Below, piece after piece: positions 25,497 to 50,207 of a DNA stretch of 64,000 nucleotides. This stretch comes from Bacteroidia bacterium. GTDB lineage: Bacteria > Bacteroidota > Bacteroidia > UKL13-3. The notes below the pieces were generated by a model that made no database searches, was not told where the DNA came from, and saw only the letters and a program-made list of their open reading frames with translations. Every line of letters starts with the position of its first letter. Within the stretch, counting starts at the first letter, position 1. Location: assembly GCA_051861545.1 (NCBI GenBank), contig JBIMKP010000004.1, forward strand, positions 41,647 through 105,646. The letters run 5' to 3'. A program made the translations under genes and the position numbers.

Positions 25497-25499
25497 CAC

Positions 25500-25627
25500 C
25501 GCGATTTATCGCGGTGTACATTGCGATACATCGTAATGTATTTCGAAATGAAATCATCATCGCAATTTATCGCGGTGTACATTGCGATACATCGCAATGT
25601 ATTTCGAAATGAAATCATCATCGCAAT
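25500..25627. repeat. 61-bp tandem repeat, 2.1 copies, each unit built of stacked palindromes
   Basis: Unit 25500-25560 matches 25561-25621 with 2 mismatches, and a third copy starts at 25622. Each unit holds cgc(g/a)at-tt-atcgcg, tacattgcga-taca-tcg(t/c)aatgta and atttcgaaat. Confidence 0.9.
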
Positions 25628-25644
25628 AAATTCAGGATGAAAAT

Positions 25645-25690
25645 CACAAAAAAAACACCACGAAAAATTTTCGTGGTGTTTTTTTTTATT
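25645..25690. terminator. Bidirectional Rho-independent terminator between convergent genes
   Basis: A-run, then caccacgaaaa / ttttcgtggtg stem, then a long T-run. Confidence 0.7.
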
Positions 25691-25746
25691 AACAGCGATG
25701 AATCTATGCACCGCGATGAATCGCGGTGGTACAGGGGATTAATCAA

Positions 25747-44055: not shown

Positions 44056-45103
44056 AATTATTATTTTAAGTGATGATATAAGAACTGGAAAATCAATTGC
44101 TTTATCCAATTGGCTGAAAAACATCCGTTCTAAGGGTGGATTTCTAACGCCAGATATTGATAATAAAAGGAAGTTACTGAGTCTAAATACAGGAATTTAT
44201 CACAATTTTGAAGTTGAAGAAACAGCAGTTGATAAGGTCTCAATTGGCCGTTTTCATTTTTCAAAAAAGGTTATGGATGATGCTGCTGAGGAAGTATTAT
44301 ACATTATTGATAAAGGCGTTCAGTATTTAATAATTGATGAAATTGGTAGACTTGAAATTGAATCAAATTTGGGCTTCTTCCCTATTTTAAATGAGCTAAT
44401 TTCAAGTTATCAAAAACCAGGATTGGGTTATTTAATATTAGTAATTCGACAATCACTTTTACAAAAAGGAATTGAAAAATTTCATCTTCAAAATGCCAAA
44501 ATATTAAACTTAAATGAGTTTAATTCTGCCATTCAAAGCCAAGGTTTAGTTTTAGCTGGTGGAGAATCTAGTCGTATGGGAATCTCAAAAGGTTTAATTA
44601 ATTACCACGGGCTTAATCAACAAGATTTTTTATACAAAGAATTATCAAAACATTGTGAAAAGGTATACTTGAGTTTGAAACAAAATACTTTTGAAAACAA
44701 TCCTAGTAATTTACCAAGCATAATCGATAATCCTCTATTTGCTGATAAAGGCCCAATGTCGGCTTTGATTAGTGCTATACTAGAAAATCCATTAGCTAAT
44801 TGGTATGTTTTAGCCTGCGATTATCCCTATTTAAAATGCAGAGATATTGAGTTTTTATACAAGTTTTTTATTAATTCTGAAGCAAGTGTTTGTTTTGGAA
44901 AAGATAAAACATACGAGCCTTTATTGGCAATTTATCACAACAATGATTTTAATACTTTATGGAAAATGTTTAGTAAAGGAAATGAATCATTAAAGAAATT
45001 TCAAGATACTATAAAACCTAAAGTTTTAATGCCAATTCATGATGATATTTTAATAAGTGTGGATACCCCAGAACAAATGAATGAAGCTAAATTGAAATTA
45101 TGA
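44036..45103 (+). CDS. mobA: Fusion of a P-loop NTPase-like domain with molybdenum cofactor guanylyltransferase (MobA-like)
   Basis: N-terminal DDIRTGKS (Walker A-like) and YLIIDEIGRLE (Walker B-like). C-terminal half has GLVLAGGESSRMG, the MobA signature. Confidence 0.65.
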   Translation: MIPAENRIIILSDDIRTGKSIALSNWLKNIRSKGGFLTPDIDNKRKLLSLNTGIYHNFEVEETAVDKVSIGRFHFSKKVMDDAAEEVLYIIDKGVQYLIIDEIGRLEIESNLGFFPILNELISSYQKPGLGYLILVIRQSLLQKGIEKFHLQNAKILNLNEFNSAIQSQGLVLAGGESSRMGISKGLINYHGLNQQDFLYKELSKHCEKVYLSLKQNTFENNPSNLPSIIDNPLFADKGPMSALISAILENPLANWYVLACDYPYLKCRDIEFLYKFFINSEASVCFGKDKTYEPLLAIYHNNDFNTLWKMFSKGNESLKKFQDTIKPKVLMPIHDDILISVDTPEQMNEAKLKL

Positions 45104-45933
45104 AAAACAGTGGTGTTAAAGTTTTTTCGATTAAATCGTATAAAGAGCAAAATGCTGATAGTAAAGATGACTTATTAGTTGTTGAAGAGCCTTTAGAGAT
45201 AAGACTAAGATATGGCTTAATTAACGATAGAAAAGAAATGAACTTGGCTATTACTATGCGCACGCCAGGCCACGACTTTGAATTGGTTCGAGGTTTTTTG
45301 TTTAGTGAAGGAATTATTCATAAAGTAAATGACATTATCAGTATTAAATATTGTATAAATACCAAAGAGGAAGAAGAAAATAATATTGTTAAAGTTGAAC
45401 TTTCTGAAACTGTATTATTGGATGAAAAGTTATTTAAAAGAAATTTTTATATTAGTTCTAGTTGCGGTGTTTGCGGGAAATCAAGTATAGAATCTGTAAT
45501 GGATTCTTGTAATATAAAAGTTGATTCTAATACCAAATTTAAAGCTTCTACCCTCTTATTATTGCCTGATGCATTAAGGAATGAACAAATAAGTTTTAAA
45601 TATACTGGAGGCTTACATGCATCAGCTTTATTTGATGAAAATGCGAAGATTATTTTATTAAGGGAAGATGTAGGTAGGCATAATGCATTAGACAAAGTTA
45701 TTGGAGCTAGTTTAGGGAATTCTTTAATAAATTATGGCTTAATTTTAAGTGGTCGCATTAGCTTCGAACTTATGCAGAAAGCGGCCATGGCGGGAATTCA
45801 ATTGGTTTGTGCAATTGGAGCTCCATCGAGCTTAGCAGTCGAAATGGCCAAAGAGTTTAATATCACATTAATTGGTTTTCTTAAATCAGATAGAATGAAT
45901 ATTTATGCTGGAGAAGAACGAATTATCTATTAA
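45100..45933 (+). CDS. fdhD: Formate dehydrogenase accessory sulfurtransferase FdhD
   Basis: SSCGVCGKSSIE, GGLHASALF and EDVGRHNALDKVIG. ATGA overlap with the upstream gene. Confidence 0.85.
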   Translation: MKNSGVKVFSIKSYKEQNADSKDDLLVVEEPLEIRLRYGLINDRKEMNLAITMRTPGHDFELVRGFLFSEGIIHKVNDIISIKYCINTKEEEENNIVKVELSETVLLDEKLFKRNFYISSSCGVCGKSSIESVMDSCNIKVDSNTKFKASTLLLLPDALRNEQISFKYTGGLHASALFDENAKIILLREDVGRHNALDKVIGASLGNSLINYGLILSGRISFELMQKAAMAGIQLVCAIGAPSSLAVEMAKEFNITLIGFLKSDRMNIYAGEERIIY

Positions 45934-45950
45934 GAAAAAAGCAAAACATA

Positions 45951-46694
45951 TGAACCTTTATGGTTCATGAAATTGAGCTAATTAGATTGTTTATTAAACC
46001 AATTAAAATCAAACTTCAAACCCAAAATCTAACGACTCAGAAGGAGTCGTATGTTTATAGCAATCTCCCGATGAATTGGTGCGACCCTGAAGGGGTCGAA
46101 TTGCATTTTGCAGGAATGTTGCTATAAACATGTGAACCTTTCTGGTTCAGAAGATTTTGCTAAATTAGTTGCTTGTTGAAAAATATCAAATTCATGTTTC
46201 AAAATAGAAAACGCACGACTCAGAAGGAGTCGCATGTTTATAGCAATCTCCCGATGAATTAGTGCGACCCTGAAGGGGTCGAATTGCATTTTGCAGGAAT
46301 GTTGCTATAAACATGTGAACCTTTCTGGTTCAGAAGATTTTGCTAAATTAGTTGCTTGTTGAAAAATATCAAATTCATGTTTCAAAATAGAAAACGCACG
46401 ACTCAGAAGGAGTCGCATGTTTATAGCAATCTCCCGATGAATTGGTGCGACCCTGAAGGGGTCGAATTGCTTCCTCATGAATGTTTCTATAGACATGTGA
46501 ACCTTTCTGGTTCAGAATACTGAGCAAATTCTATCGTTAATTTATACCAATTAAAATCAAGTTTTATAACGAAATCTCACGACTCTGAAGGAGCCGTATG
46601 TTTATAGAAATACTCTCAAAAAATATGCGACCCTGAAGGGGTCGAATTGTGTCCTCATGAATGTTTCTATAAACATGTGAACCTTTCTGGTTCA
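45951..46694. repeat. Array of structured repeats: 4 units with 183/183/181-bp period plus a leading partial unit
   Basis: The acgactc(a/t)gaagga anchor recurs at 46032, 46215, 46398 and 46579. Each unit holds hairpins cgactc-agaag-gagtcg, cgaccc-tgaag-gggtcg and tgaacc-tttct-ggttca, and the inverted pair atgtttatagcaa/ttgctataaacat. Confidence 0.92.
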
Positions 46695-46729
46695 TTAAAT
46701 TCAAAAATTCTTAAACAATCAAGTTTAAA

Positions 46730-47191
46730 TCAATCATACCATTCAAATAAATATTCATCTTTAAAATCAATATTAAACTTACTAAGAAATTCAATATATT
46801 CTGATTTAAAGGACTTTTTCATATGATGCGCTTTTTGATTATTAATATATTTTATAACTGCTTCTAAAGCAGATTGATTGTAAGAAAAAGCACCAAAACC
46901 TTCCTGCCATGAAAATTTATATTTTGAAAAACTTCTTTCATTAATAAACACATTTGAGGATTTTTTTATTTCTCTAATTAAATCTGATAAACAACATGAT
47001 GGCTTCATTCCAATCAATATATGTATATGATCAGGCATACCATTTATAGCTAATATTTTTTGATTTTTATTTTCGACAATACCTGTGATATATTTATAAA
47101 GGTCTTCTTCCCAACTCTCATTTATTAAAGATTGTCGACCTTTTACAGCGAAAATAATTTGAATATATATTTGTGAATACGAACCCGGCAT
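46730..47191 (-). CDS. IS200/RAYT-type Y1 (HUH) tyrosine transposase, 153 aa
   Basis: HUH motif MPDHIHILIG; catalytic-Tyr context AVIKYINNQKAHH; size and N-terminus (YSQIYIQIIFAVKGR) are typical of the Y1_Tnp fold. Confidence 0.85.
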   Translation of the reverse strand: MPGSYSQIYIQIIFAVKGRQSLINESWEEDLYKYITGIVENKNQKILAINGMPDHIHILIGMKPSCCLSDLIREIKKSSNVFINERSFSKYKFSWQEGFGAFSYNQSALEAVIKYINNQKAHHMKKSFKSEYIEFLSKFNIDFKDEYLFEWYD

Positions 47192-47315
47192 ATTCTCAAA
47201 AGTCTATTGAATATTTTATAAAACAATGACATGTAATAAAATTTAAGGCTTACCTAAATAACATTAATAGTTTCCTTAAAAATTGCATTTTTTACAAAAA
47301 AATTAAAAATTTTAT

Positions 47316-47540
47316 GCAACCACCTTCGGTGTCGAATTTCATACTTATGAATATCTCTATAAACATGTGAACCTTTCTGGCTCAACAGATTGCGCAAATT
47401 CTATCCTTAATTTATACCAATTAAAATCAAGTTTTATAACGATATCTCATGACTATGAAAGAGTCGAATGCTTATAGGCCAACCTCGTTGAAGATAAGAC
47501 CCTGAAATGGTTGTATTGTATTCTCATGAATGCTTATAAT
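47316..47540. repeat. Decayed copy of the same repeat unit, same orientation, on the other side of the transposase gene
   Basis: gcaaccaccttcggtgtcgaatt...ctctataaacatgtgaacctttctggctca...atttataccaattaaaatcaagttttataacgatatctcatgactatgaaagagtcg...aagaccctgaaatggttg is collinear with 46448-46670. Confidence 0.8.
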
Positions 47541-47578
47541 TTGGCAAATCATATGATTTAACAATTCTAAAAACAAAA

Positions 47579-47604
47579 ATGCCGCTCCAAAATTGAAGCG
47601 GCAT
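47579..47604 (-). terminator. Bidirectional Rho-independent terminator downstream of gyrA
   Basis: atgccgct-ccaaaattga-agcggcat flanked by an A-run and a T-run. Confidence 0.7.
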
Positions 47605-47627
47605 TTTTTTTATTTTAAACCAATCAA

Positions 47628-50207
47628 CTATTCTGTTGGTGGTGTTTCATCTTCTGGAGTTGTTTCTTCTGGAGAAACTTCTGCATTGTCTTCAGGAATA
47701 TCTATTGTTAAATCAATTGGTCCATCAATTATAGTTCCATCATCTTCTAACAATTCATCTTCTTCACCTTCAATTACATCAATTTTAGCAACTGATGCAA
47801 TCTCGTCTTTTCCACCAATATTAATCAACCTAACACCTTGAGTTACGCGACCCAATACTCTTAAGTCTTTCATGGCTAAACGAATGGTAATACCTGACTT
47901 ATTGATAATCATGATATCGTTGCTATCATCCACATCTTTAATAGCTACCAATTTACCAGTTTTATCAGTAATATTCATAGCACGAACACCTTTACCACCA
48001 CGATTGGTAATACGGTACTCTTCTACCTCAGAACGTTTACCCATTCCATTTTCACTAACTACCAAAACATTGGTTGTAGCAGGATCGGCAATAGAAACCA
48101 TTCCAATAACTTCATCACCTTCATCTAAACGTATTGCTCTAACACCAGTGGCATTTCTACCCATCGGACGAACTGTACTTTCGTTAAAACGAATTGCTTT
48201 TCCTAATCTTGAAGCAATAATGATTTCGCTGGTACCACTGGTTAATCTGGCTTCAACCAAATGATCGCCTTCTCTAACTGTGATTGCATTAATACCATTT
48301 GCTCTTGGGCGACTATATGCTTCCAATGTTGTTTTTTTGATAGTACCTTGTTGGGTTACCATAATTACATTGGCTTGGTTGATATATTCTTGGTCGTTAA
48401 GGTTTTTAACATTCAAGAATGCTTTCACTTTATCATCAGCAGGCATATTGATAAGGTTTTGAATTGCTCTACCTTTAGAAGTTTTTTCTCCTTCTGGAAT
48501 TTCAAAAATCCTCAACCAGAAACATCTTCCTTGTTCTGTAAATAATAACAAGAAATTATGGTTGGTTGCCATGAAAATGTATTCTACAAAATCTTCTTGA
48601 CGTTTAGCAACGCCTCGGCTTCCTCTTCCACCGCGGTTTTGTGTGCGGTATTCGCTTAATGAAGTTCTTTTAACATAACCCAAATGTGAAATGGTAATAA
48701 CCACGTCATCATCTGGAATAAGGTCTTCCATGCTCATTTCGTTTCCACTCATTTCAATAATTGAACGACGAGCATCAGCATATTTTTCCTTCATTTCAAG
48801 TAACTCATCCTTGATAATTTTCATTCTGATAGATTCATCAGCAAGAATTTCTCTTAAATGAGTAATGAATTTCATTAATTCAGCATATTCAGCGCGTATT
48901 TTATCTCTTTCAAGTCCGGTTAAACGCTGTAATCTCATATCTAAAATAGCTTTCGCTTGAATTTCAGATAATTTGAAGTTTTCCATTAATCCTGATTTTG
49001 CATCATCTGGATTAACACTTTTTCTAATTAATGCAATAACTTCATCTAAATGATCTAATGCAATTAATAAACCTTCTAAAATATGAGCTCTTTTTAAAGC
49101 CTCATCCAATTCATATTGAGTTCTTCTAACTACAACTTCATGTCTATGTTCAACATAAAATTTAATTAAACCTAATAAGTTTAATGTTTCTGGTCTTCCT
49201 TTTACCAAACAAACATTATTAATATTAAACGAAGTTTGTAATTGAGTGTATTTATATAATTTGTTTAAAATTACATTTGGAACTGCTTCACGTTTTAAAT
49301 CGTAAACAATACGCATTCCATCTCTATCACTCTCATCTCTGATATCAGAAATTCCTTCAATTACTTTTTCATTGATTAACTCTGCAGTTCTTTCAATTAA
49401 GCTTGATTTATTTACTTGATAAGGAATTTCAGAAACTATGATTTGGTTTTTACCAGTTGCAGAAGTTTCAAAATTAGCTTTAGCACGCATCACTATTCGT
49501 CCGCGACCAGTTTCAAAAGCTTCTTTTACACCCTCGTAACCATAAATTGTACCACCTGTAGGAAAATCTGGTGCCTTCACGTACTTCATTAAATCGGCAA
49601 CTGTAACATTATTATTATCAATATATGCTACTACACCATCAATAACCTCACCTAAGTTATGCGGAGCCATATTTGTGGCCATACCAACAGCAATACCAGA
49701 AGCGCCATTCACTAATAAATTAGGAATTTTTGCTGGCATTACAGTAGGTTCTTGCAAACTATCGTCGAAATTGGGACGAAAATCAACTGTATTCTTCTCT
49801 AAATCAACCAATAACTCTTCAGCAATTTTTCTCAATCTTGCTTCGGTATAACGCATAGCAGCAGGAGGATCACCATCCACCGAACCAAAGTTTCCTTGGC
49901 CATCAACCAGCATATAACGCATATTCCACTCTTGTGCCATCCTAACCATGGTATCATAAACCGATGAATCACCATGTGGGTGGTACTTTCCTAATACCTC
50001 TCCAACAATTCTCGCTGATTTTTTGTAAGGCCTGTTCGATGCCAGACCCAATTCTGTCATACCATACAAAACCCTTCTATGCACGGGTTTTAATCCATCT
50101 CTCACATCCGGTAAAGCCCGGCTTACAATAACCGACATCGAATAATCGATGTAGGCGGTCTTCATTTCATCCTCAATGTTAATCGGAATAATTCTGTCTT
50201 CTGCCAT
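47628..50207 (-). CDS. gyrA: DNA gyrase subunit A
   Basis: [17 protein letters not shown] and [10 protein letters not shown] (active-site Tyr); C-terminal beta-pinwheel repeats; acidic tail. Confidence 0.97.

What the first reader, a model, noticed from the sequence alone, without database searches (positions are those of the whole stretch)
45951..47540. Single Y1 (HUH) transposase gene embedded in a same-orientation array of structured ~183-bp repeats
- **Seen in the sequence:** a 153-aa IS200/RAYT-type gene (HUH = HIHIL; Tyr in KYINNQ) lies at 46730-47191. About 4.3 repeat units lie on its 3' side (45951-46694). One decayed unit in the same orientation lies on its 5' side (47316-47540).
- **Position within the array:** the gene sits between hairpin 3 of one unit and hairpin 2 of the next. 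It looks as if it interrupts the array.
- **Established knowledge:** Y1 HUH enzymes act on ssDNA hairpins. RAYTs are typically single-copy genes flanked by the REP/REPIN sequences they mobilise.
- **What is unusual:** the unit is large (183 bp), multi-hairpin and tandemly arrayed. The Tyr motif (YINNQ) looks more IS200-like than the classic RAYT YxxxNP.
- **Inference:** this may be a REP-like system of a little-studied Bacteroidota Y1 clade.
Basis: partly seen in the sequence, partly recalled or inferred. Interest (0 to 1): 0.72.

Follow-up and report, generated by a model that had tools for sequence, protein, structure and literature searches.

The report
Domesticated IS200-like gene with hairpin-repeat array
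A single, vertically inherited IS200-like (Y1/HUH) gene sits between gyrA and fdhD inside a tandem array of a ~120-nt three-hairpin DNA element that accompanies this gene clade across Bacteroidota, which makes it a REP/RAYT-like system from the IS200 branch whose partner repeat I did not find described in the papers I could search.

Summary
A 153-aa Y1/HUH gene (46730-47191, minus strand) lies between about 4.2 tandem 183-bp units (45944-46696) and about 1.1 decayed units (47316-47540).

Each unit has a ~120-nt core that folds as single-stranded DNA far better than shuffles (z -7 to -8). The core consists of:
- two inverted "hairpin + ATGTTTATAG tail" modules (H1 and H3);
- a central, nearly invariant hairpin H2 (CGACCC-TGAAG-GGGTCG).

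The protein belongs to the IS200 branch, not the classic RAYTs. It carries the Y---Q--HH signature of TnpAY1 subclass 1.2 (Quentin 2018).

The gene is at the same gyrA-Y1-fdhD position in two relatives. Its dS matches its neighbours and dN/dS is 0.13-0.15. Array length there is 4, 2 and 1 units.

Across 80 independently sampled subclass-1.2 loci, 47 have hairpin+tail modules within 300 bp of the gene, about 50-100 times the density beyond 1 kb. Outer stems covary. Lineages 74-78% identical, in other genomic contexts, carry the same three-hairpin arrays beside the gene.

No copy occurs elsewhere in this 64-kb window.

Verdict: a REPtron-like cassette of a domesticated IS200-like enzyme, a new variant of a known kind. 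That the enzyme cuts these elements is inferred, not shown.

The parts
45100..45933 (+). fdhD (FdhD-NarQ family), the left flanking gene, convergent with the Y1 gene
   Evidence: ORF. Its orthologues in L003 and L004 carry PF02634.
45944..46031 (+). Partial unit U0: an H3-like hairpin (45950-45968) plus an AT-rich spacer
   Evidence: nhmmer hit to unit positions 94-174. The hairpin is listed.
46032..46214 (+). Unit U1. It holds H1 46033-46049 with tail ATGTTTATAG 46051-46060; central hairpin H2 46082-46098; inverted tail CTATAAACAT 46122-46131 with H3 46133-46149; and a spacer running to 46214.
   Evidence: Covariance model R1 scores it 113 bits.
46215..46397 (+). Unit U2, differing from U1 at 2 of 183 positions (a recent duplication)
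   Evidence: R1 scores it 112 bits.
46398..46578 (+). Unit U3, with the same core but a different H2-H3 linker and a spacer of the type seen in U5
   Evidence: R1 scores it 109 bits.
46579..46696 (+). Unit U4, core only. H1 carries an A-C mismatch. H3 ends 35 nt before the stop codon of the Y1 gene.
   Evidence: R1 scores it 108 bits.
46730..47191 (-). Y1/HUH gene, 153 aa: HUH = H55-I-H57, Tyr115, Q119, H122-H123 (YINNQKAHH), plus a ~30-aa C-terminal extension. IS200-like, TnpAY1 subclass 1.2.
47192..47315 (-). AT-rich region upstream of the Y1 gene. It is the presumed promoter and 5' UTR, but no promoter was identified.
47316..47448 (+). Partial unit U5: decayed H2', inverted tail with H3 (47357-47384, one G-T pair on the minus strand), and a spacer. 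On the gene's strand this reads hairpin + CATGTTTATAG, 166 nt upstream of the start codon.
47449..47540 (+). Partial unit U6: decayed H1 with tail ATGCTTATAG, and decayed H2''
   Evidence: It folds no better than chance.
47569..47614 (.). Terminator hairpin after gyrA (22-nt arms)
   Evidence: (inverted repeat I13)
47628..50207 (-). gyrA, the right flanking gene, on the same strand as the Y1 gene
   Evidence: Synteny.

Best explanation
**What it is.** The locus is a REPtron-like cassette. A vertically inherited, single-copy IS200-like Y1/HUH enzyme (TnpAY1 subclass 1.2) is flanked by its cognate DNA elements.

**The element.**
- The basic element is a short G+C-rich hairpin (NNNCC-loop-GGNNN) followed by a conserved 3' tail, ATGTTTATAG.
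- Two such elements in inverted orientation (H1 and H3) bracket a nearly invariant central hairpin (CGACCC-N4-5-GGGTCG). Together they form a ~120-nt three-hairpin element that folds into a four-way junction on either single strand.
- Here the element, with a 46-63-nt spacer, is repeated in tandem 3' of the gene. A further decayed copy lies 5' of it.

**Inferred mechanism.**
- By analogy with IS608/ISDra2 TnpA and E. coli TnpA-REP, the enzyme would bind the hairpins when the DNA is single-stranded, for example at a replication fork.
- It would cut and rejoin at or near the conserved tail.
- This would copy, delete or move hairpin-bounded segments, producing the local arrays and, in other genomes, dispersed copies.
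- In this lineage the elements appear confined to the gene's own locus. Array length changes between close relatives (about 4, 2 and 1 units).

**Shown:** enzyme family and catalytic residues, orthology and purifying selection, the structure of the unit, covariation of the outer stems, and the family-wide gene-element association.

**Inferred:** that the enzyme binds and cleaves these elements, the cleavage site, and that it (rather than slippage) changes the array.
For: **Enzyme.**
- PF01797 at E 1e-27.
- NCBIfam IS200 scores 71 bits, above its cutoff of 55.
- HUH, Tyr and Q are invariant.
- The AlphaFold model (pLDDT 73) matches IS608/ISDra2/IS200 TnpA at E about 1e-8.

**Domestication-like behaviour.**
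- The order gyrA-Y1-fdhD is the same in L003 and L004.
- Y1 has dS 0.48 and dN/dS 0.13-0.145. gyrA has dS 0.58; the other neighbours have dS 0.76-1.9.
- There is one copy in the window.
- Only 2 of 72,556 plasmid records and no phage record encode a relative.

**Element.**
- Fold z-scores are -7.3 and -8.4.
- On 20 units from 13 loci (including the window), 91% of cells pair, against 27-49% when the partners are slid.
- H1 and H3 have compensatory changes at 5 of 6 and 4 of 6 pairs. H2 is nearly invariant.

**Association.**
- In 80 loci chosen by protein only, 47 have a perfect hairpin (5 bp or more) plus tail within 300 bp of the gene.
- Density is 2.2/kb in the 250 bp upstream (same orientation) and 1.2/kb downstream (inverted). 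It is 0.03-0.07/kb beyond 1 kb and 0.02/kb in shuffles.
- Anchoring on the tail alone, 74 of 90 have a hairpin immediately 5' of it, against 1.8% of shuffles, with 18 different stems.
- All 20 complete Y1 genes found next to the H2 19-mer carry Y---Q--HH, although they are only 34-88% identical to the window protein.
- The same three-hairpin arrays abut the stop codon of Y1 genes that are 76-78% identical but lie in unrelated contexts (L204, period 119 x 3.7; L205, 3 units). L124 has at least 10 units.

**Extragenic bias.** Only 19 of 132 H2 copies fall in ORFs, against an 82% background.
Against: - No biochemical or in vivo evidence links this enzyme clade to any DNA substrate.
- There is no copy of the element elsewhere in the 64-kb window. 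In two related MAGs the exact H1 and H3 patterns occur only at the Y1 locus. The mobilising activity is therefore not visible in this lineage.
- Tandem copy-number change and the near-identity of U1 and U2 are equally well explained by replication slippage or unequal recombination.
- Orientation of the modules relative to the gene is not fixed across the family.
- From the gene side, only 59% of loci show the simple module. Only 33 of 78 give any hit to the three-hairpin model, 7 of them at 60 bits or more.
- The exact H2 19-mer itself is near only about 12% of the sampled genes.
Confidence: 0.6

Rival explanations
1. The hairpin elements are primarily RNA-level or transcription-level signals, such as terminators, insulators or mRNA-stabilising structures between convergent genes. 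The array grows and shrinks by replication slippage or unequal recombination. On this view the Y1 protein does not act on them today.
For: - The terminator-like scan finds 17 sites in 45800-47700, against 0.9 expected.
- The array lies between convergent fdhD and Y1.
- U1 and U2 are near-identical neighbours, as slippage would give.
- There are no dispersed copies in this lineage.
- E. coli REPs are known to act as terminators and mRNA stabilisers (background in PMC6006769).
Against: - A generic terminator role does not explain why the same sequence-specific tail and central hairpin are enriched about 50-100-fold next to one gene clade in unrelated genomic contexts.
- It does not explain why they occur on both sides of the gene and in both orientations.
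- Most hairpins are not followed by a T-run. The tail is ATGTTTATAG.
- There is no strand bias of G-T over A-C mismatches (8 versus 13). An RNA read from one strand would be expected to show such a bias.
Confidence: 0.2
2. Each unit encodes a structured small RNA with a four-way junction, repeated in tandem. This RNA would work with or regulate the Y1 gene, in the way that IS200 carries regulatory RNAs or IS605-family elements carry guide RNAs at their ends.
For: - There is strong, conserved secondary structure with compensatory changes.
- The arrays start at the stop codon of the gene in L204 and L205, a position where transposon-end RNAs are encoded in related elements.
Against: - There is no Rfam family match at E of 1 or below or at gathering scores in 20 loci.
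- The structure forms equally well on both strands. R1 scores both strands highly.
- Unit orientation relative to the gene differs between lineages: the window is flipped relative to L205.
- There is no G-U excess.
- There is no TnpB/IscB partner gene nearby.
Confidence: 0.1
3. It is an ordinary, currently mobile IS200 insertion sequence that happened to land in, or next to, an unrelated repeat array.
For: - It passes the NCBIfam IS200/IS605 equivalog cutoff.
- Databases name relatives 'IS200/IS605 family transposase'.
- In lineages 76-78% identical the gene is in other genomic contexts.
Against: - The position is orthologous in three genomes, with dS equal to that of neighbouring housekeeping genes and dN/dS 0.13-0.15.
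- There is one copy in the window.
- The flanks are shared with the array rather than being discrete short identical ends.
- Relatives are 72-79% identical across Bacteroidota families, whereas IS families typically occur as near-identical copies within a genome.
- It is almost absent from plasmids and absent from phages.
- It has the subclass-1.2 signature, described as lacking IS properties (PMC6006769).
Confidence: 0.05

Closest known systems
TnpAY1 subclass 1.2 (Quentin et al. [quoted passage not shown] 2017 (PMC5581495)
   Same: - It has the Y---Q--HH signature (YINNQKAHH) and a short core followed by a conserved C-terminal extension.
- It has low copy number and a Bacteroidota host.
- It behaves unlike an IS.
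- Bertels' Group 3 likewise has no duplicates, is not on plasmids, and has abundant flanking 16-mers.
   Different: - Quentin et al. describe the subclass as generally lacking the typical IS200 terminal secondary structures, and in the sections I read they report no cognate repeat for it.
- Here, and in 47 of 80 sampled loci, the gene is flanked by a specific hairpin+tail element, often as three-hairpin arrays.
- The equation with Bertels' Group 3 was not verified.
REPtron / REP-RAYT (TnpA-REP) systems and REPINs (Nunvar 2010; Bertels & Rainey 2011; Ton-Hoang 2012; Messing 2012, PDB 4ER8)
   Same: - A single-copy, vertically inherited Y1 gene is flanked by its own extragenic palindromes.
- Inverted doublets form a long hairpin, as REPINs do.
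- Clusters of alternating-orientation palindromes with two kinds of linker resemble E. coli BIME-2 arrays (this comparison is from my own knowledge).
- The stems covary between genomes.
   Different: - The protein is on the IS200 side of the family: Y-x3-Q rather than Y-x3-N-P; the NCBIfam REP model scores 35 bits against a cutoff of 80; 4ER8 ranks only 30th in the fold search.
- There is no 5' GT[AG]G tag. Instead there is a conserved 10-nt 3' tail.
- There is an additional invariant central hairpin.
- No dispersed copies are detected in this lineage.
IS200/IS605 TnpA (IS608, ISDra2, IS200)
   Same: - It has the same fold, HUH and Tyr, and the Q four residues after the Tyr.
- These enzymes recognise subterminal DNA hairpins on one strand and cut at a short sequence some nucleotides from the hairpin. 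The hairpin plus 10-nt tail resembles this arrangement.
   Different: - It is not multi-copy and not on plasmids or phages.
- The position is orthologous between genomes.
- The flanking modules are commonly inverted (tails pointing towards the gene), not direct left and right ends.
- There is no tnpB partner.
- It has an extra C-terminal domain.

Membership tests
IS200/IS605 TnpA (Y1 HUH transposase, Pfam PF01797 / NCBIfam NF033573) | Y1_Tnp domain above curated cutoffs | tested here: met
   PF01797 scores 97 bits (cutoff 23), covering profile positions 2-121 of 121. NF033573 scores 71.2 bits (cutoff 55).
IS200/IS605 TnpA (Y1 HUH transposase, Pfam PF01797 / NCBIfam NF033573) | HUH motif, catalytic Tyr and Q four residues after it; TnpA fold | tested here: met
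   H55, H57, Y115 and Q119 are invariant. Foldseek top 29 hits are IS608, ISDra2 and IS200 TnpA at E 1e-8 to 1e-6. The model is only moderately confident (pLDDT 73).
IS200/IS605 TnpA (Y1 HUH transposase, Pfam PF01797 / NCBIfam NF033573) | Behaves as an insertion sequence: several near-identical copies, variable positions between close relatives, frequent on plasmids | tested here: not met
   There is one copy in 64 kb. The position is orthologous in three genomes with neighbour-like dS. Only 2 of 72,556 plasmid records and 0 phage records match. The complete host genome was not available.
IS200/IS605 TnpA (Y1 HUH transposase, Pfam PF01797 / NCBIfam NF033573) | Discrete left and right ends with similar subterminal hairpins in direct orientation, and a target tetranucleotide | tested here: inconclusive
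   In the window, hairpin+tail modules of the same orientation lie 166 nt upstream and 35 nt downstream of the gene. No element boundaries or target site can be defined. Family-wide, the commonest layout is inverted.
TnpAY1 subclass 1.2 (Quentin et al. 2018) | Y---Q--HH motif | tested here: met
   Y115-INN-Q119-KA-H122-H123. The motif is conserved in relatives 33-88% identical.
TnpAY1 subclass 1.2 (Quentin et al. 2018) | Conserved subclass-specific C-terminal domain; low copy number; Cyanobacteria/Bacteroidetes distribution | tested here: met
   The C-terminal ~30 aa are conserved (F128, E131, Y132, F135, L136, L148, F149 invariant). There is a single copy here. The named hits are Bacteroidota. 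The authors' own profile was not available for comparison.
RAYT / TnpA-REP (class 2 TnpAY1) | REP_Tyr_transpos model above cutoff; Y-x3-N-P motif | tested here: not met
   NF047646 scores 35.1 bits against a cutoff of 80. The motif is YINNQ, not Y---NP. 4ER8 is absent from the sequence search and ranks 30th in the fold search.
RAYT / TnpA-REP (class 2 TnpAY1) | Flanked by REPs carrying a 5' GT[AG]G tag at the foot of the hairpin | tested here: not met
   The hairpins here are preceded by variable bases and followed by the conserved tail ATGTTTATAG.
RAYT / TnpA-REP (class 2 TnpAY1) | Single copy, vertically inherited, under purifying selection | tested here: met
REP / REPIN (dispersed extragenic palindromes mobilised in trans) | Inverted doublet of palindromes able to form one long hairpin | tested here: met
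   41-nt arms are 76% complementary with 55 nt between them. The fold shows a 13-bp tail-tail stem capped by H2. The layout is conserved in 20 units from 13 loci, including the window.
REP / REPIN (dispersed extragenic palindromes mobilised in trans) | [quoted passage not shown] | tested here: not met
   - The window has no copy outside 45944-47540, by HMM, motif scan and covariance model.
- The related MAGs CALRIT02 and JBMLOK01 have exact H1 matches only at the Y1 locus.
- In other genomes the H2-type element is dispersed and extragenic: for example, 9 loci in MAG DATHKF01, and 19 of 132 copies in ORFs against an 82% background.
- Whole-genome counts were not possible.
REP / REPIN (dispersed extragenic palindromes mobilised in trans) | Bound and cleaved by the associated Y1 enzyme | not testable with these tools
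   This needs protein biochemistry.

The most novel reading that the evidence does not exclude
Subclass-1.2 IS200-like enzymes and the ~120-nt three-hairpin element form a second REP/RAYT-type partnership that has not been described. The element consists of variable outer hairpins, conserved ATGTTTATAG tails and an invariant central CGACCC...GGGTCG hairpin. The partnership would have arisen on the IS200 branch independently of the classic RAYTs. It is widespread in Bacteroidota, and its H2-type hairpin is also found next to such genes in other phyla. The invariant centre and tails would be the protein's recognition and cleavage sites. Arrays next to the gene would act as the reservoir from which dispersed copies are seeded.
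Probability: 0.4. Interest if true: 0.75.

Novelty: new variant of a known kind. Interest (0 to 1): 0.6.

Why it matters
REP/RAYT systems are the textbook case of a domesticated bacterial transposase living with its own population of miniature elements. All well-studied cases come from the RAYT branch, mostly in Proteobacteria.

Here the same lifestyle appears on the IS200 branch proper, in Bacteroidota. Its partner element has a different grammar: a 3' tail instead of a 5' GTAG tag, and an extra invariant hairpin.

If confirmed, it would show three things:
- It would support repeated evolution of the enzyme-plus-palindrome partnership, although Bertels et al. leave open a single domestication that includes IS200 Group 3.
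- It would give a defined, conserved candidate substrate for an enzyme clade that has none.
- It would explain a class of intergenic arrays that break Bacteroidota assemblies.

The conserved tail and centre also make the recognition and cleavage question directly testable with oligonucleotides.

Tried and rejected
1. **Finding the host genome.** The window's protein is not on record as a called gene. Two metagenome scans, one with H1+tail and one with the lineage-specific H2 pattern, found nothing. Genome-wide copy number in the host therefore could not be measured.

2. **H2 as a cross-phylum conserved sequence.**
   - The exact 19-mer occurs in at least 119 stretches across several phyla.
   - I do not read this as special conservation. 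The scan only sees that one variant. About 9 hits are expected by chance, and one hit is a 16S rRNA helix.
   - From the gene side only 10 of 80 loci have it within 3 mismatches.
   - The general hairpin+tail rule explains the data better.

3. **Strand test.** I compared G-T with A-C single mismatches in stems to tell a strand-specific RNA or ssDNA from a duplex palindrome. The counts were 8 versus 13, which is uninformative.

4. **Known RNA families.**
   - There is no Rfam match to the units.
   - A Flavo-1 RNA hit near a Y1 gene in L170 is a separate element. It was seen in 1 of 20 loci.

5. **Boundaries of array indels.** Boundaries between the window, L003 and L004 might have revealed cleavage sites. 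They cannot be placed, because the spacers have diverged and tandem duplications have no unique breakpoints.

6. **Promoter for the Y1 gene.** The sigma-70 scan is at or below chance (7 found, 9.7 expected), and I found no clear Bacteroidota-type -7 motif by eye.

7. **Link to replication and repair neighbours** (gyrA, recQ, rarA). A tblastn check on 80 loci found 3 further cases. That is too few to conclude anything.

8. **Literature.** No paper in the library contains the H2 string. The tail strings occur only as primers in the top-ranked 15 of 134 papers that hold them.
Full report
**1. What is there**

Between fdhD (45100-45933, +) and gyrA (47628-50207, -) lies a 1.7-kb non-coding stretch that contains a single 153-aa ORF on the minus strand (46730-47191).

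- Tandem Repeats Finder reports a 183-bp period, 3.6 copies and 88% matches at 46032-46694.
- An HMM built from the units adds a partial unit at 45944-46023. It also finds two partial decayed pieces 5' of the gene (47328-47445 and 47451-47536). All are in one orientation. It finds nothing else in the 64-kb window.
- Units U1 and U2 differ at 2 of 183 positions, so at least one duplication is recent.
- The three hairpin patterns occur 4-5 times each, against 0 expected in shuffles.

**2. Anatomy of the unit**

H1 (CGACTC-AGAAG-GAGTCG) is followed by the tail ATGTTTATAGCAA. H3 (TGAACC-TTTCT-GGTTCA) is preceded by the reverse complement of that tail. H1+tail and H3+tail are thus inverted copies of one module (41-nt arms, 76% complementary, 55 nt apart).

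Between them sits H2 (CGACCC-TGAAG-GGGTCG). A 46-63-nt AT-rich spacer, of two sequence types, completes the 183 bp.

The 135-nt core folds as single-stranded DNA into a four-way junction: H1, a 13-bp tail-tail stem capped by H2, H3, and a short closing stem.
- The energy is -30.8 kcal/mol on the + strand and -31.3 kcal/mol on the - strand.
- Shuffles average about -11 kcal/mol, giving z -7.3 and -8.4.
- The 5'-side copy has decayed (z -1.0).

**3. The protein**

- It matches Pfam Y1_Tnp over the full domain (E 1e-27).
- NCBIfam places it with IS200/IS605 (71 bits, cutoff 55). It fails the REP-associated tyrosine transposase model (35 bits, cutoff 80).
- The nearest solved structures by sequence are ISDra2, IS200 and IS608 TnpA. 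RAYT 4ER8 is not found.
- A moderately confident model (pLDDT 73) matches those TnpA structures at E about 1e-8. 4ER8 ranks 30th.
- H55, H57, Y115, Q119, H122 and H123 are invariant in close relatives and in relatives only 33-66% identical.
- The motif YINNQKAHH is the Y---Q--HH signature of TnpAY1 subclass 1.2 (Quentin et al. 2018, PMC6006769). [quoted passage not shown]
- Bertels et al. 2017 (PMC5581495) describe a "RAYT-like IS200 Group 3" with no duplicates, no plasmid copies and abundant flanking 16-mers. This may be the same clade. I could not verify that.

**4. Inheritance**

Two related genomes carry the same order gyrA-Y1-fdhD: L003, which matches the 402-kb contig of MAG CALRIT02, and L004 (= L122) of MAG JBMLOK01.

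| Gene, window versus the two relatives | Protein identity | dS | dN/dS |
|---|---|---|---|
| Y1 | 86-88% | 0.48 | 0.13-0.145 |
| gyrA | 96.7% | 0.58-0.59 | 0.03-0.04 |
| other neighbours | 75.5-94% | 0.76-1.9 | 0.04-0.14 |

The gene is therefore orthologous and under purifying selection at a level like its neighbours.

- The repeats flank the gene in all three genomes. The number of complete units 3' of the gene is about 4 (window), 2 (L003) and 1 (L004). About one unit lies 5' of the gene in each.
- A fourth MAG contig (L002) ends inside the array next to gyrA.
- More than 100 relatives at 71-79% identity come from many Bacteroidota families.
- Only two ~600-kb plasmid records of 72,556, and no phage record, encode a relative.
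- At 76-78% identity the gene sits in other genomic contexts.

**5. Is the element tied to the gene?**

*Hairpin-side test.*
- The H2 19-mer (GACCCWGAAGGGGTCGAAT) was scanned in one genome for each of 185,579 species. About 9 are expected by chance, by my own estimate from the pattern and collection size.
- 17 of about 115 loci outside the close relatives hold a Y1 gene or fragment, usually within 150 bp of the hairpin.
- All 20 complete Y1 genes found in these loci and in the close relatives carry Y---Q--HH, although they are only 34-88% identical to the window protein.
- The copies avoid ORFs: 19 of 132 fall in ORFs, against an 82% background (p about 1e-63).
- Some MAGs have them on many contigs, for example 9 loci in DATHKF01.

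*Gene-side test, independent of the hairpin.*
- 80 loci were fetched by protein patterns only.
- 47 of the 80 have a perfect hairpin of 5 bp or more followed by an ATGTTTATAG-like tail within 300 bp of the gene.
- Density is 2.2/kb in the 250 bp upstream (same orientation as the gene) and 1.2/kb in the 250 bp downstream (inverted). It is 0.03-0.07/kb beyond 1 kb and 0.02/kb in shuffles.
- Anchoring on the tail alone, 74 of 90 tails have a hairpin immediately 5' of them, against 1.8% of shuffles. There are 18 different stems, nearly all of the form NNNCC-loop-GGNNN.
- The specific H2 19-mer is near only 10 of the 80 genes within 3 mismatches. It is one variant of a general rule, not a uniquely conserved sequence.

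**6. The three-hairpin unit is a family trait**

- In L204 (Y1 78% identical, near recQ) a 119-bp unit repeated 3.7 times starts at the stop codon of the gene.
- In L205 (76% identical, next to rarA) three ~230-bp units do the same.
- Both have the layout outer hairpin + tail, central CGACCC...GGGTCG hairpin, inverted tail + outer hairpin. The outer stems differ from those in the window.

An alignment of 20 units from 13 loci (including the window) gives 91% paired cells, against 27-49% when the partners are slid.
- H1 shows compensatory double changes at 5 of 6 pairs, and H3 at 4 of 6.
- H2 is almost invariant (4 of 6 pairs never vary).
- The tail stem is conserved mainly in sequence.

A covariance model built from this alignment gave the following results.
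- It finds the four window units (108-113 bits) and nothing else in the window apart from the decayed 5' copy.
- It finds arrays next to Y1 genes in L124 (Profundicola chukchiensis, at least 10 units) and L045, and arrays at contig ends in L053 and L094.
- It finds single copies without a nearby Y1 gene in Sphingobacteriaceae loci.
- 33 of 78 gene-sampled loci give a hit at E of 0.01 or below, 7 of them at 60 bits or more. These E-values are rough.

**7. Interpretation**

The best-supported reading is a REPtron-like cassette: a domesticated IS200-like enzyme with its cognate palindromic elements. This parallels RAYT/REP and REPIN systems and the alternating palindrome clusters of E. coli (the last comparison is from my own knowledge).

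The grammar differs in four ways:
- the protein belongs to the IS200 branch;
- there is no 5' GTAG tag;
- there is a conserved 10-nt 3' tail;
- there is an invariant central hairpin.

The hairpin plus a tail of about 10 nt recalls the right end of IS608, where cleavage occurs a few nucleotides 3' of the hairpin. That analogy, and the claim that the enzyme cuts at the tail, are inference.

In this lineage the elements look confined to the gene's own locus. The mobilising half of the REP model is therefore not visible here. Array-length change could equally be due to slippage.

The layout is conserved in relatives, and family-wide the gene normally carries such modules at both ends.

**8. Rivals**

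- An ordinary active IS200 is unlikely (orthologous position, neighbour-like dS, single copy, rarity on plasmids).
- A purely transcriptional or RNA role does not explain the gene-specific, sequence-specific association. It cannot be excluded as an additional function: there are 17 terminator-like sites against 0.9 expected.
- A structured small RNA lacks support. There is no Rfam match. Both strands fold equally well. Unit orientation relative to the gene varies. There is no G-U excess.

**9. Novelty and limits**

The enzyme clade is published, as is its non-IS behaviour. I found no description of its partner element, the hairpin+tail rule or the three-hairpin arrays in the searchable literature. 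That library is incomplete.

I rate it a new variant of a known kind.

Main limits:
- no complete host genome;
- MAG assemblies that break at these arrays;
- a gene-side sample that is not phylogenetically corrected;
- no experiment.

Noticed in passing
window 25499-25726: A second, unrelated set of intergenic palindromes (CACCGCGAT-TT-ATCGCGGTG and CATTGCGATACATCGCAATG). They form a 61-bp unit repeated 2.1 times, with a third copy at 25711, between convergent ORFs. They are found only at this spot in the window.
   Followed up: partly
L170 3600-3659 (-): A Flavo-1 RNA (RF01705, 58.6 bits, gathering score 42) lies about 160 bp 3' of a subclass-1.2 Y1 gene in Flavobacterium sp. J49, between two terminators. 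It is a separate element from the hairpin+tail repeats. It was seen in 1 of 20 loci scanned.
   Followed up: partly
window 47628-50207; L204 1537-3732; L205 3578-4855; L187, L157, L199: Genes next to subclass-1.2 Y1 genes are repeatedly replication or repair genes: gyrA here, recQ, rarA/mgsA twice, and gyrA/parC-like twice. The numbers are small and no statistics were done.
   Followed up: partly
L002 1-77; L053 38-2233; L094 992-1723: Arrays of the three-hairpin element sit at contig ends, so they break short-read assemblies. Copy numbers of these elements in MAGs are probably underestimated.
   Followed up: no
L001 / L003 (CALRIT020000001.1): A 402-kb contig titled Vulcanococcus limneticus (a cyanobacterium) is syntenic with this window, which has about 31% G+C and relatives labelled Bacteroidota. 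GyrA is 96.7% identical. The record looks mislabelled or mis-binned.
   Followed up: no
L170 2755-2990; L176 upstream of the Y1 gene: In some Flavobacteriia the gene is preceded by tandem arrays of the simple module alone, without the three-hairpin arrangement. An example is ATCCC-GTTA-GGGAT + TAGATGTCGGTAGAAAAA with period 58, about 4-5 copies.
   Followed up: no
L005, L040, L062, L079, L090, L102 (Acidobacteriota loci): In Acidobacteriota the H2-type hairpin is preceded, about 22 nt upstream, by a different conserved hairpin (TAGCCGGGGGCAACGCCCCCGG) instead of the ATGTTTATAG-tailed module. It is sometimes followed by its own inverted copy. This may be a distinct composite element.
   Followed up: no
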